NCBI RefSeq assembly: GCF_003018255.1
Contig: NZ_CP027440.1
Source of the DNA: Escherichia coli
Lineage (GTDB): Bacteria > Pseudomonadota > Gammaproteobacteria > Enterobacterales > Enterobacteriaceae
Length of the DNA: 64,000 nucleotides
Strand: one strand, 5' to 3'
Position 1 is the first letter of the stretch. Each line of letters opens with the position of its first letter. The translations under genes were made by a program, and so were the position numbers. Positions 37,723 through 64,000 of the stretch are shown piece after piece. The notes beneath the pieces were generated by a model. The model saw only the letters and a list, made by a program, of their open reading frames with translations. It was not told the DNA's origin and searched no databases.

Positions 37723-39264
<1,542 letters not shown>

Positions 39265-39349
39265 CCTTAAAGAAGCGTACTTTGCAGTGCTCACACAGAT
39301 TGTCTGATAGAAAGTGAAAAGCAAGGCGTCTTGCGAAGCAGACTGATAC

Positions 39350-39425
39350 GTCCCCTTCGTCTAGAGGCCCAGGACACCGCCCTTTCACGGCGGTAACAGG
39401 GGTTCGAATCCCCTAGGGGACGCCA
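39350..39425 (+). tRNA. gltU: tRNA-Glu (UUC), 16S-23S spacer tRNA
   Basis: GTCCCCTTCGTCTAGAGGCCCAGGACACCGCCCTTTCACGGCGGTAACAGGGGTTCGAATCCCCTAGGGGACGCCA, 76 nt. Confidence 0.95.
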
Positions 39426-39609
39426 CTTGCTGGTTTGTGAGTGAAAGTCACCTGCCTTAATATCTCAAAACTCATCTTCGGGTGATGTTTGAGATATTTG
39501 CTCTTTAAAAATCTGGATCAAGCTGAAAATTGAAACACTGAACAACGAAAGTTGTTCGTGAGTCTCTCAAATTTTCGCAACTCTGAAGTGAAACATCTTC
39601 GGGTTGTGA

Positions 39610-42515
<2,906 letters not shown>

Positions 42516-42612
42516 ACAACGCCGAAGATGTTTTGGCGGATGAGAGAAGATTTTCAGCCTGATACAGATTAAATCGACATGTCATAACGAGACGTGTTGA
42601 TAAAACAGAATT

Positions 42613-42732
42613 TGCCTGGCGGCCTTAGCGCGGTGGTCCCACCTGACCCCATGCCGAACTCAGAAGTGAAACGCCGTAGCGCCGATGGTAGTGTGGGGTC
42701 TCCCCATGCGAGAGTAGGGAACTGCCAGGCAT
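42613..42732 (+). rRNA. rrfC: 5S ribosomal RNA
   Basis: TGCCTGGCGGCC...GGGAACTGCCAGGCAT, 120 nt. Confidence 0.96.
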
Positions 42733-42784
42733 CAAATTAAGCAGTAAGCCGGTCATAAAACCGGTGGTTGTAAAAGAATTCGGT

Positions 42785-42861
42785 GGAGCGGTAGTTCAGT
42801 CGGTTAGAATACCTGCCTGTCACGCAGGGGGTCGCGGGTTCGAGTCCCGTCCGTTCCGCCA
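42785..42861 (+). tRNA. aspT: tRNA-Asp (GUC)
   Basis: GGAGCGGTAGTTCAGTCGGTTAGAATACCTGCCTGTCACGCAGGGGGTCGCGGGTTCGAGTCCCGTCCGTTCCGCCA, 77 nt. Confidence 0.95.
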
Positions 42862-42869
42862 CCCTAATT

Positions 42870-42945
42870 AGGGGCGTAGTTCAATTGGTAGAGCACCGGT
42901 CTCCAAAACCGGGTGTTGGGAGTTCGAGTCTCTCCGCCCCTGCCA
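42870..42945 (+). tRNA. trpT: tRNA-Trp (CCA)
   Basis: AGGGGCGTAGTTCAATTGGTAGAGCACCGGTCTCCAAAACCGGGTGTTGGGAGTTCGAGTCTCTCCGCCCCTGCCA, 76 nt. Confidence 0.95.
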
Positions 42946-60667: not shown

Positions 60668-60797
60668 AGTGTGGTAGAATATCAGCTTACTATTGCTTTA
60701 CGAAAGCGTATCCGGTGAAATAAAGTCAACCTTTAGTTGGTTAATGTTACACCAACAACGAAACCAACACGCCAGGCTTATTCCTGTGGAGTTATAT

Positions 60798-61127
60798 ATG
60801 AGCGATAAAATTATTCACCTGACTGACGACAGTTTTGACACGGATGTACTCAAAGCGGACGGGGCGATCCTCGTCGATTTCTGGGCAGAGTGGTGCGGTC
60901 CGTGCAAAATGATCGCCCCGATTCTGGATGAAATCGCTGACGAATATCAGGGCAAACTGACCGTTGCAAAACTGAACATCGATCAAAACCCTGGCACTGC
61001 GCCGAAATATGGCATCCGTGGTATCCCGACTTTGCTGCTGTTCAAAAACGGTGAAGTGGCGGCAACCAAAGTGGGCGCACTGTCTAAAGGTCAGTTGAAA
61101 GAGTTCCTCGACGCTAACCTGGCGTAA
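60798..61127 (+). CDS. trxA: Thioredoxin 1
   Basis: 109 aa from [41 protein letters not shown]...; WCGPC active site; the track ORF begins 35 codons upstream. Confidence 0.97.
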
Positions 61128-61369: not shown

Positions 61370-61453
61370 CCGTAAACAGGCATGGATGATCCTGCCATAC
61401 CATTCACAACATTAAGTTCGAGATTTACCCCAAGTTTAAGAACTCACACCACT

Positions 61454-62713
61454 ATGAATCTTACCGAATTAAAGAATACGCCGGTTTCTGAGCTGATCAC
61501 TCTCGGCGAAAATATGGGGCTGGAAAACCTGGCTCGTATGCGTAAGCAGGACATTATTTTTGCCATCCTGAAGCAGCACGCAAAGAGTGGCGAAGATATC
61601 TTTGGTGATGGTGTACTGGAGATATTGCAGGATGGATTTGGTTTCCTCCGTTCCGCAGACAGCTCCTACCTCGCCGGTCCTGATGACATCTACGTTTCCC
61701 CTAGCCAAATCCGCCGTTTCAACCTCCGCACTGGTGATACCATCTCTGGTAAGATTCGCCCGCCGAAAGAAGGTGAACGCTATTTTGCGCTGCTGAAAGT
61801 TAACGAAGTTAACTTCGACAAACCTGAAAACGCCCGCAACAAAATCCTCTTTGAGAACTTAACCCCGCTGCACGCAAACTCTCGTCTGCGTATGGAACGT
61901 GGTAACGGTTCTACTGAAGATTTAACCGCTCGCGTACTGGATCTGGCATCACCTATCGGTCGTGGTCAGCGTGGTCTGATTGTGGCACCGCCGAAAGCCG
62001 GTAAAACCATGCTGCTGCAGAACATTGCTCAGAGCATTGCTTACAACCACCCGGATTGTGTGCTGATGGTTCTGCTGATCGACGAACGTCCGGAAGAAGT
62101 AACCGAGATGCAGCGTCTGGTAAAAGGTGAAGTTGTTGCTTCTACCTTTGACGAACCAGCATCTCGCCACGTTCAGGTCGCGGAAATGGTGATCGAGAAG
62201 GCGAAACGCCTTGTTGAGCACAAGAAAGACGTTATCATCCTGCTCGACTCCATCACTCGTCTGGCGCGCGCTTACAACACCGTTGTTCCGGCGTCAGGTA
62301 AAGTGCTGACCGGTGGTGTGGATGCCAACGCCCTGCATCGTCCGAAACGCTTCTTCGGTGCGGCGCGTAACGTGGAAGAGGGCGGCAGCCTGACCATCAT
62401 CGCTACCGCGCTTATCGATACCGGTTCCAAGATGGACGAAGTTATCTACGAAGAGTTTAAAGGTACAGGCAACATGGAACTGCACCTCTCTCGTAAGATC
62501 GCTGAAAAACGCGTCTTCCCGGCAATCGACTACAACCGTTCCGGTACCCGTAAAGAAGAGCTGCTCACTACTCAGGAAGAACTGCAGAAAATGTGGATCC
62601 TGCGCAAAATCATTCACCCGATGGGCGAAATCGATGCAATGGAATTCCTCATTAATAAACTGGCAATGACCAAGACCAATGACGATTTCTTCGAAATGAT
62701 GAAACGCTCATAA
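61454..62713 (+). CDS. rho: Transcription termination factor Rho
   Basis: 419 aa from [40 protein letters not shown]...; the track ORF begins 24 codons upstream. Confidence 0.98.
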
Positions 62714-62730
62714 ATTTGTCTTATGCCAAA

Positions 62731-62764
62731 AACGCCACGTGTTTACGTGGCGTTTTGCTTTTAT
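62731..62764 (+). terminator. rho rho-independent terminator
   Basis: AACGCCACGT-GTTT-ACGTGGCGTT hairpin followed by a T-rich tract. Confidence 0.8.
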
Positions 62765-62952
62765 ATCTGTAATCTTAATGCCGCGCTGGCAATGTTAGGA
62801 AAATTCCTGGATTTTGCTGGTGTGTTATGCAATTTGCATATCAAATGGTTAATTTTTGCACAGGACTGGTGGGTTCGGAACGGACTTTCCCTTCTGAATA
62901 AAGGTCTTCGTGGTTATACTTCTGCTAATAATTTTCTCTGAGAGCATGCATT

Positions 62953-64000
62953 GTGAATTTACTGACAGTGAGTACTGATCTCATCAGTATTTTTTTATTC
63001 ACGACACTGTTTCTGTTTTTTGCCCGTAAGGTGGCAAAAAAAGTCGGTTTAGTGGATAAACCTAACTTCCGCAAACGTCACCAGGGATTGATACCTCTCG
63101 TTGGGGGGATTTCGGTTTACGCAGGGATTTGCTTCACGTTCGGAATTGTCGATTACTATATTCCGCATGCATCTCTCTATCTCGCTTGTGCTGGTGTGCT
63201 TGTTTTCATTGGCGCGCTGGATGACCGTTTTGATATCAGCGTAAAAATCCGTGCCACCATACAGGCCGCTGTTGGCATTGTTATGATGGTGTTCGGCAAA
63301 CTTTATCTCAGTAGCCTGGGTTATATCTTTGGCTCCTGGGAGATGGTGCTCGGACCGTTTGGTTACTTCCTGACGCTATTTGCCGTCTGGGCGGCCATTA
63401 ATGCGTTCAACATGGTTGATGGCATTGATGGCTTGCTGGGTGGGTTGTCCTGCGTCTCGTTTGCAGCAATCGGTATGATTTTGTGGTTCGACGGGCAAAC
63501 CAGTCTCGCAATCTGGTGCTTTGCGATGATCGCCGCCATCCTGCCATACATCATGCTTAACCTTGGTATCCTGGGTCGCCGCTACAAAGTCTTTATGGGG
63601 GATGCGGGCAGTACGCTGATTGGTTTTACCGTTATCTGGATCCTGCTCGAAACGACCCAGGGCAAAACTCATCCCATCAGCCCGGTTACCGCTTTGTGGA
63701 TAATCGCCATTCCGCTAATGGATATGGTGGCGATTATGTACCGTCGCCTGCGTAAAGGCATGAGCCCATTCTCTCCAGACCGTCAGCATATTCACCATTT
63801 GATCATGCGTGCCGGGTTTACTTCCCGCCAGGCGTTTGTGCTGATTACCCTTGCCGCAGCACTGCTCGCTTCCATTGGCGTGCTGGCAGAATATTCTCAT
63901 TTTGTCCCGGAGTGGGTCATGCTGGTGCTCTTTTTGCTAGCATTCTTCCTCTATGGATATTGCATCAAGCGTGCCTGGAAAGTTGCTCGCTTTATTAAGC
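62953..64000 (+). CDS. wecA: UDP-GlcNAc:undecaprenyl-phosphate GlcNAc-1-phosphate transferase WecA (Rfe), runs to the window end without a stop
   Basis: GTG-initiated frame translating (M)NLLTVSTDLISIFLFTTLFLFFARKVAKKVGLVDKPNFRKRHQG...; absent from the ORF track because of the GTG start and missing stop. Confidence 0.9.
   Translation, partial: MNLLTVSTDLISIFLFTTLFLFFARKVAKKVGLVDKPNFRKRHQGLIPLVGGISVYAGICFTFGIVDYYIPHASLYLACAGVLVFIGALDDRFDISVKIRATIQAAVGIVMMVFGKLYLSSLGYIFGSWEMVLGPFGYFLTLFAVWAAINAFNMVDGIDGLLGGLSCVSFAAIGMILWFDGQTSLAIWCFAMIAAILPYIMLNLGILGRRYKVFMGDAGSTLIGFTVIWILLETTQGKTHPISPVTALWIIAIPLMDMVAIMYRRLRKGMSPFSPDRQHIHHLIMRAGFTSRQAFVLITLAAALLASIGVLAEYSHFVPEWVMLVLFLLAFFLYGYCIKRAWKVARFIK

What the first reader, a model, noticed from the sequence alone, without database searches (positions are those of the whole stretch)
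62953..64000. wecA begins with GTG and is missed by the ATG-based ORF track
The frame starting GTG at 62953 encodes the recognisable WecA N-terminus and stays open to the window end. It is an example of a real gene absent from the six-frame track.
Basis: partly seen in the sequence, partly recalled or inferred. Interest (0 to 1): 0.2.

Follow-up and report, generated by a model that had tools for sequence, protein, structure and literature searches.

The report
wecA gene with GTG start
This is the ordinary, already annotated E. coli gene wecA, which makes the first lipid-linked sugar of enterobacterial common antigen and many O-antigens; it does begin with GTG at 62953, a start codon kept in almost all related enteric bacteria.

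Summary
Confirmed and ordinary. The frame from GTG 62953 stays open for 349 codons to the window end. Its product is 349/349 identical to residues 1-349 of E. coli K-12 WecA (367 aa). RefSeq annotates wecA from this same GTG in K-12 MG1655 (b3784) and in the closest strain found, JNE23-011 (0 differences in wecA, about 100% elsewhere). An in-frame TAA lies 8 codons upstream, with no ATG/GTG/TTG in between. The first in-frame ATG is codon 111, inside the fourth hydrophobic segment and after the catalytic D90-D91, so an ATG-only call would give a truncated 257-aa product. In 60 of 62 rho-linked orthologues from about 33 Enterobacterales genera, the codon aligned to codon 1 is GTG. It follows a GAGAG-type Shine-Dalgarno-like motif, and codons 2-4 vary synonymously. 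The two Dickeya exceptions use ATG five codons downstream. None of 78 comparable synonymous A/G sites is invariant, so the GTG itself appears to be selected. wecB shows the same invariance (39/39). One caveat: the ORF also runs off the window end, which alone hides it from some ORF lists. The gene and its start are already known. The order-wide GTG conservation is a minor extra.

The parts
62729..62766 (+). Intrinsic terminator of rho, upstream of the wecA regulatory region. It is a 12-bp hairpin (AAAACGCCACGT GTTT ACGTGGCGTTTT) followed by a T-rich tail. Context only, not part of wecA.
   Evidence: Terminator scan. The rho stop codon ends at 62713.
62912..62921 (+). Block GGTTATACTT containing a -10-like hexamer TATACT (62915-62920). 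It is a candidate element of one of the wec promoters. This is inference only.
   Evidence: The block sits at -41 to -32 from the GTG in the Escherichia, Citrobacter and Enterobacter-like orthologues but not in more distant genera. The consensus promoter scan did not call a + strand promoter here. The literature reports four transcription start sites plus PdeL and NsrR sites upstream of wecA (PMC8669472), but I did not map them to these coordinates.
62929..62931 (+). In-frame TAA stop, 8 codons upstream of the GTG. It limits any N-terminal extension.
   Evidence: The seven codons between it and the GTG are TTT TCT CTG AGA GCA TGC ATT, with no ATG, GTG or TTG.
62940..62944 (+). Shine-Dalgarno-like GAGAG, with 8 nt between it and the GTG.
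   Evidence: Sequence. A GAGAG-type motif (GAGAG/GAGAA/GAGAT; weaker in Pectobacterium and Brenneria) lies 7-9 nt before the start in most of the 55 orthologue sequences, while the rest of the upstream region diverges.
62953..62955 (+). GTG initiation codon of wecA.
   Evidence: Annotated start in RefSeq K-12 and JNE23-011. GTG in 56/56 full-length orthologues and in 4 more partial loci. A at -3 in 98% of sequences.
62953..64000 (+). wecA (rfe) coding sequence, codons 1-349 of 367, cut by the window end. [quoted passage not shown]
   Evidence: There are 11 hydrophobic segments.
63220..63225 (+). Codons D90-D91 (GAT GAC) in GALDDRFD, the conserved aspartates of cytoplasmic loop 2. They lie upstream of the first in-frame ATG.
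   Evidence: DD at residue 90. Their role is described in the review PMC7439462.
63283..63285 (+). First in-frame ATG (codon 111). An ATG-only ORF caller would start here, which would give a 257-aa product.
   Evidence: Codon 111 lies within the fourth hydrophobic segment, centred at about 110-114.
63400..63432 (+). NAFNMVDGIDG motif (residues 150-160, including D156 and D159), the signature of this transferase family in cytoplasmic loop 3. It served as the search pattern for orthologues.

Best explanation
The stretch 62953-64000 is the 5' 95% of wecA (rfe), the first gene of the wec (enterobacterial common antigen) operon, directly downstream of rho. WecA is an 11-helix inner-membrane enzyme. 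It transfers GlcNAc-1-phosphate from UDP-GlcNAc to undecaprenyl phosphate, which starts synthesis of enterobacterial common antigen and of O-antigens that begin with GlcNAc. Translation starts at GUG 62953, positioned by a modest GAGAG Shine-Dalgarno-like motif 8 nt upstream. Shown here: gene identity, open frame, agreement with the annotated start, conservation of the GUG and the motif, and coding-type variation from codon 2. Inferred: that ribosomes initiate at this codon in this strain. Also inferred: that the weak start codon is kept because it limits WecA synthesis.
For: The frame is open for 349 codons. The product is 349/349 identical to K-12 WecA and there are 0 nucleotide differences from strain JNE23-011 in this stretch. 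TIGR02380 scores 573 bits against a cutoff of 326, covering residues 8-349; PF00953 scores 106 bits. RefSeq CDS starts coincide with 62953 and are GTG. The region is present in 5,425 of 5,426 complete E. coli genomes. The upstream in-frame stop is 8 codons away with no alternative canonical start. Three orthologues have a stop only 1 codon upstream. GTG is the aligned codon in 56/56 full orthologues and 4 partial ones from about 33 genera. rho lies directly upstream in 48/48 loci that have enough flank. Codons 2-4 vary synonymously (AAT/AAC, TTA/CTA/TTG, CTG/CTC/CTT), while the upstream sequence is unconserved apart from GAGAG and A at -3. D90-D91 and three hydrophobic segments lie before the first ATG. 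Per the review PMC7439462, WecA has 11 transmembrane segments and essential aspartates in cytoplasmic loops 2 and 3. That review also cites Amer & Valvano 2000, whose title states that the N-terminal three-helix region is required for function.
Against: No direct evidence of initiation could be retrieved: no N-terminal sequencing, start-site ribosome profiling or toeprint. The Amer & Valvano 2000 paper is not held. The Ribo-RET supplements are not held. wecA does not appear in the TRAINSPOTTER N-terminomics supplements. The two Dickeya orthologues use ATG five codons downstream, so the first five residues and the GUG are not indispensable. The gene is incomplete in the window.
Confidence: 0.97

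Rival explanations
1. The gene is wecA, but translation really starts at the next in-frame GTG, codon 6 (62968). This position is ATG in many other Enterobacterales (VNLLTMSTE...).
For: Codon 6 is ATG in Yersinia, Serratia, Pantoea, Erwinia, Rahnella, Xenorhabdus and other orthologues, and GTG in E. coli. Dickeya initiates at about this position.
Against: Codon 6 is GCA, GCG, GCT, GCC, ACG or GTT, which are not start codons, in Citrobacter, Enterobacter, Pluralibacter, Cedecea, Klebsiella-like and other orthologues. No Shine-Dalgarno-like motif precedes it. The conserved GAGAG would be about 23 nt away. Codons 2-5 are conserved at the protein level with synonymous changes, which indicates they are translated. 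The RefSeq annotation uses codon 1.
Confidence: 0.02
2. The true product starts at the first in-frame ATG (63283) and is 257 aa long, as an ATG-only ORF call would suggest. The upstream open frame would then be untranslated leader.
For: An ATG is present at codon 111. From my own memory, unverified here, the earliest published rfe annotation was 257 aa.
Against: Residues 1-110 are 100% identical to K-12 WecA. In the orthologue protein alignment, whole-protein identity is 70-100% (median 81%) and codon 1 aligns without gaps. TIGR02380 aligns from residue 8. This region carries D90-D91 and three hydrophobic segments, and ATG 111 falls inside the fourth. The title cited says the N-terminal region is required for function.
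Confidence: 0.005
3. The invariant G of the start codon is conserved not to keep initiation weak but because it overlaps some other sequence element, such as a protein or RNA binding site or an mRNA structure. It could also reflect plain phylogenetic inertia.
For: Nucleotides around the start (A at -3, GTGAAYTTACTC) are unusually conserved, including some third positions: TTA at codon 3 is A in 91% of sequences. No experiment links the GUG to WecA dosage.
Against: The predicted fold of 62922-63000 is no better than shuffled sequence (z = -0.73). Inertia is unlikely: none of 78 synonymous A/G sites at invariant amino acids is invariant across the same 57 sequences, and the maximum major-base fraction is 0.88. 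An independent gene, wecB, shows the same invariance (39/39), while rffC and rffG switch start codons in the same loci.
Confidence: 0.3

Closest known systems
[quoted passage not shown]
   Same: All 349 residues present are identical. The GTG start, the 30 nt upstream and the position after rho are the same. There are 10 nucleotide differences in 1,048 nt, all synonymous, and 5 differences in the 239-nt rho-wecA spacer.
   Different: Only that the window ends 18 codons before the stop.
MraY (phospho-MurNAc-pentapeptide transferase) and other members of the polyprenyl-phosphate N-acetylhexosamine-1-phosphate transferase superfamily (Pfam PF00953)
   Same: They share the Glycos_transf_4 domain (106 bits). 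There are weak matches to the MraY models TIGR00445 (33.6 bits) and NF053644 (51.5 bits). The DD and NxxNxxDGxDG motifs are shared. From general knowledge, both enzymes use undecaprenyl phosphate as acceptor.
   Different: The MraY scores are far below the curated MraY cutoffs (192 and 450 bits). The sugar-nucleotide substrate and the pathway differ. No solved structure was retrievable by sequence search, even at E <= 10.
Genes with conserved weak start codons used to limit or regulate expression (from my own knowledge: infC AUU, lacI GUG, cyaA UUG)
   Same: A non-AUG start codon is retained over long evolutionary distance, against the genome-wide tendency for GUG to switch to AUG (Belinky et al. 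2017, PMC5622118).
   Different: No regulatory mechanism acting through the wecA start codon has been shown. Here the evidence is conservation only.

Membership tests
WecA (NCBIfam TIGR02380 ECA_wecA) | Whole-protein score above the curated cutoff of the family model | tested here: met
   573.4 bits against a cutoff of 326.05. Residues 8-349 match profile positions 2-344 of 346.
WecA (NCBIfam TIGR02380 ECA_wecA) | Identity to the experimentally studied E. coli K-12 enzyme | tested here: met
   349/349 residues identical to NP_418231.1.
WecA (NCBIfam TIGR02380 ECA_wecA) | Position as first gene of the wec cluster, downstream of rho and upstream of wzzE-wecB | tested here: met
   rho ends at 62713 in the window. 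wzzE and wecB follow in the closest record found, which has no nucleotide differences in the wecA part. rho is upstream in 48/48 orthologue loci with enough flank. The downstream genes lie outside the window itself.
Polyprenyl-phosphate N-acetylhexosamine-1-phosphate transferases (Pfam PF00953 Glycos_transf_4) | Domain match above the gathering score | tested here: met
   106.3 bits against 27, residues 76-233.
Polyprenyl-phosphate N-acetylhexosamine-1-phosphate transferases (Pfam PF00953 Glycos_transf_4) | Conserved aspartates of cytoplasmic loops 2 and 3 (D90, D91, D156, D159 in WecA) | tested here: met
   DD at residues 90-91 in GALDDRFD. NMVDGIDG starts at residue 153, which places D156 and D159. 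Their importance is stated in PMC7439462.
Polyprenyl-phosphate N-acetylhexosamine-1-phosphate transferases (Pfam PF00953 Glycos_transf_4) | Polytopic membrane protein (11 transmembrane segments in WecA) | tested here: met
   Eleven hydrophobic peaks (Kyte-Doolittle, 19-residue window, threshold 1.6), centred near residues 13-19, 56, 80, 110-114, 140, 169, 195, 222, 252, 303 and 327. This is a crude hydropathy count, not a topology prediction.
Polyprenyl-phosphate N-acetylhexosamine-1-phosphate transferases (Pfam PF00953 Glycos_transf_4) | Catalysis of GlcNAc-1-P transfer to undecaprenyl phosphate | not testable with these tools
   Inferred from identity to the characterised K-12 enzyme (PMC7439462).
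MraY (TIGR00445 / NF053644) | Score above the curated MraY cutoffs | tested here: not met
   33.6 bits against 192.05, and 51.5 bits against 450. It is a paralogous family, not MraY.

The most novel reading that the evidence does not exclude
The GUG start codons of wecA and wecB may be held invariant across the order Enterobacterales by selection for weak initiation. These two enzymes draw UDP-GlcNAc into the common-antigen pathway, and WecA also draws on undecaprenyl phosphate. A weak start would act as a hard-wired translational throttle, protecting the pools shared with peptidoglycan and lipopolysaccharide synthesis. The conservation is shown here. The dosage rationale is speculation.
Probability: 0.35. 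Interest if true: 0.35.

Novelty: already known. Interest (0 to 1): 0.1.

Why it matters
For the genome scan, this is a worked example of a real limitation. ATG-only ORF tracks, and tracks that drop ORFs running off the window end, miss or truncate real genes. Here the ATG-only call would remove three transmembrane segments and two catalytic aspartates. Biologically nothing new is claimed about WecA. The one extra observation is that the weak GUG start of wecA, and that of wecB, is essentially invariant across about 33 enterobacterial genera while synonymous sites are saturated. This suggests that expression of these pathway-entry enzymes is deliberately capped at the level of translation. The idea is testable with a single-base change.

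Tried and rejected
- **Solved structures:** a sequence search of WecA against PDB chains found nothing at E <= 0.001 or even at E <= 10, so no structural comparison was made.
- **Primary papers on the start site:** Amer & Valvano 2000 (PMC94301) and Lehrer et al. 2007 (PMC1855806) are not held. Text searches for wecA with 'start codon'/'GTG', '367 amino' and '257 amino' gave nothing relevant.
- **Start-site data sets:** no supplements are held for the Ribo-RET preprint, and wecA is absent from the TRAINSPOTTER supplements.
- **mRNA structure around the start:** the predicted fold is not better than shuffles (z = -0.73), so a structure-based explanation was dropped.
- **Promoter scan of 62600-63100:** no + strand sigma-70-like site was found, only one chance-level hit on the - strand. 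The wec promoters were not mapped.
- **Codon 6 and codon 111 as alternative starts:** both were considered and rejected (see rival explanations).

Full report
**1. Observation**

GTG lies at 62953-62955 in + frame 1. Translation from it gives 349 sense codons and no stop up to the window end. By my own arithmetic, a random frame would stay open that long with probability of roughly 5e-8. The ORF is not in the mechanical ORF list of the region. So there are two independent reasons why such a gene can be missing from an ORF track: the GTG start and truncation by the window end.

**2. Identity**

- The window is E. coli chromosome. Positions 1-25000 are 100.0% identical, and 62600-64000 are 99.9% identical, to strain JNE23-011 (NZ_AP045067.1).
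- The 349-residue product is identical at every position to K-12 WecA. The DNA differs from K-12 at 10 of 1,048 positions and from JNE23-011 at none.
- It scores 573.4 bits on TIGR02380 ECA_wecA (cutoff 326.05), matching from residue 8 to 349. It scores 106.3 bits on Pfam PF00953 Glycos_transf_4.
- Matches to the MraY models are far below their cutoffs.
- The stretch is present in 5,425 of 5,426 complete E. coli genomes.
- Upstream in the window lie gppA, rhlB, trxA, rhoL and rho, followed by the rho terminator hairpin at 62729-62756.
- Downstream, outside the window, the closest matching record continues with wzzE and wecB.

**3. The start codon**

RefSeq annotates wecA from exactly this codon. 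In JNE23-011 the CDS starts at locus position 1854, which maps to window 62953. In K-12 MG1655, b3784 spans 3967916..3969019 (1104 nt, 367 codons plus stop). Both begin with GTG, and the 30 nt before it are identical to the window.

An in-frame TAA lies 8 codons upstream at 62929. The seven codons between it and the GTG include no ATG, GTG or TTG. The next in-frame candidates are:
- GTG at codon 6 (62968);
- further GTG or TTG codons at positions 27, 34, 46 and 82;
- the first ATG, only at codon 111 (63283).

A GAGAG motif at 62940-62944 sits 8 nt before the GTG.

**4. Independent comparative test**

I scanned one genome per species (GTDB representatives) with a degenerate DNA pattern for the catalytic-loop motif NAFNMVDGIDG. 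This motif lies about 450 nt inside the gene, so the search is blind to the start codon.

- Of the reading frames with enough upstream DNA and high similarity to the E. coli protein, 56 of 56 align from E. coli residue 1, and all have GTG at that position.
- Four further partial loci (Rosenbergiella, two Edwardsiella, Siccibacter) also have GTG.
- These species span about 33 genera, including Escherichia, Citrobacter, Enterobacter, Yersinia, Serratia, Pantoea, Erwinia, Proteus, Xenorhabdus, Photorhabdus, Arsenophonus, Hafnia and Budvicia.
- rho lies directly upstream on the same strand in all 48 loci with enough flank.
- Downstream of the GTG, codons 2-4 show synonymous variation (AAT/AAC; TTA/CTA/TTG; CTG/CTC/CTT).
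- Upstream, only a GAGAG-type motif 7-9 nt away and an A at -3 (98%) recur.
- Three orthologues have a stop just one codon upstream of the GTG.
- Codon 6 is ATG in many genera but GCA, GCG, GCT, GCC, ACG or GTT in others, so it cannot be the common start.
- The only exceptions are two Dickeya species. A relic GTGAAT is followed there by a stop, and an ATGATG five codons downstream opens the gene.
- More distant homologues (Vibrio, Shewanella, Haemophilus) and second copies in some Enterobacterales mostly have ATG as the nearest candidate start (34 of 50). GTG is therefore a trait of the rho-linked gene, not of the family.

**5. What an ATG-only call would lose**

Residues 1-110 carry three hydrophobic segments and D90-D91 (GAT GAC at 63220-63225). 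Codon 111 falls within the fourth of eleven hydrophobic segments. The review PMC7439462 describes WecA as having 11 transmembrane segments, with essential aspartates in cytoplasmic loops 2 and 3. It also cites a paper whose title states that the N-terminal three-helix region is required for function.

A start at codon 111 would give 367 - 110 = 257 residues. From memory only, the earliest rfe annotation was 257 aa, and Amer & Valvano (2000) determined the correct initiation site with FLAG-tagged constructs. I could not read that paper here.

**6. Is the GTG itself selected?**

I aligned 57 orthologues (70-100% amino-acid identity to the window, median 81%). In that alignment, 78 columns have an invariant amino acid whose third codon base can be A or G synonymously.

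- None of those 78 columns is invariant at the third base. The commonest base reaches at most 88%.
- The first base of the start codon is G in all 57, although G to A would create the stronger ATG.
- Genome-wide, GUG-to-AUG switches are more frequent than neutral expectation (Belinky et al. 2017, PMC5622118). Retention here therefore runs against the general trend.
- As controls in the same loci: wecB has GTG in 39 of 39. rffC (GTG in K-12) is ATG in 7 of 15. rffG (ATG in K-12) is TTG or GTG in most others. rho and wecC are always ATG.
- Predicted mRNA structure around the start is unremarkable (z = -0.73).

The most economical reading is gene-specific purifying selection for a weak start at wecA and wecB. 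These are the two enzymes that take UDP-GlcNAc into the pathway. That rationale is inference and is untested.

**7. Comparison with what is known, and verdict**

The gene, its function and its GTG start are already in the reference annotation, so nothing about the finding as stated is new. Membership in the WecA family passes every test I could run; enzymatic activity cannot be tested here. The order-wide invariance of the GUG, shared with wecB, is a small side observation. I did not find it described in the papers I could search, and I did not search for it specifically. Interest is low.

Noticed in passing
outside the window: K-12 locus L123 13134-14264 (wecB), and orthologue loci L007-L119: wecB, two genes downstream of wecA, also starts with GTG (VKVLTVFGTR). 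That GTG is invariant in 39 of 39 Enterobacterales loci. In the same loci, rffC (GTG in K-12) and rffG (ATG in K-12) switch among ATG, GTG and TTG.
   Followed up: partly
L104 and L122 (Dickeya undicola, D. oryzae), about 450 nt upstream of the motif match: The wecA orthologue keeps a relic 'GTGAAT' that now runs into a stop codon (GTG AAT AAA TCA TGA). The gene opens with ATGATG five codons downstream. This is a natural case where the GUG start and the first five residues were lost.
   Followed up: partly
L015, L026, L044, L057, L062, L078, L086: Several Enterobacterales (Rahnella, Pantoea, Brenneria, Pectobacterium, Serratia oryzae) carry a second, more divergent wecA-like gene. It starts with ATG (MQE...) and lies at a different locus from the rho-linked copy.
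   Followed up: no
window 60693-61127 and 61382-62713: The mechanical ORF list over-extends two real genes. trxA is listed from TTG 60693 (144 aa), although the annotated CDS is 330 nt (109 aa). rho is listed from ATG 61382 (443 aa), although the annotated start is at 61454 (419 aa). This is the opposite error to the one in the finding.
   Followed up: partly
window 11202-11359, 37723-42942, 46164-46453, 60728-60827: Rfam matches above gathering score: STnc410 sRNA; a complete rRNA operon (16S, tRNA, 23S, 5S, two tRNAs); Rev39_5p_UTR; and the TrxA 5' UTR thermometer just upstream of trxA.
   Followed up: no
window 1-25000: The start of the window carries long polar fimbria genes (lpfC-O113) next to glmS, the atp operon and mnmG. 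Only 1,945 of 5,426 E. coli genomes hold at least 80% of this 25 kb in one place, so part of it is accessory.
   Followed up: no
window 62912-62921: The block GGTTATACTT, with a -10-like TATACT, lies about 40 nt before the wecA start. It is shared by Escherichia, Citrobacter and Enterobacter-like orthologues but not by more distant genera. It may belong to one of the four reported wec transcription start sites.
   Followed up: no
E. coli strain CH4790, NZ_CM166351.1 556315-557233 (hit H37): This genome matches only 66% of the rho-wecA query, and the wecA remnant lies next to wecB. This suggests a deletion of the 3' part of wecA and of wzzE.
   Followed up: no
window 62953-64000 (protein): A phmmer search of WecA against all PDB chain sequences returned no match even at E <= 10. 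This is surprising given that, from my own knowledge, MraY and GPT structures exist. It may reflect composition filtering of this very hydrophobic query.
   Followed up: no
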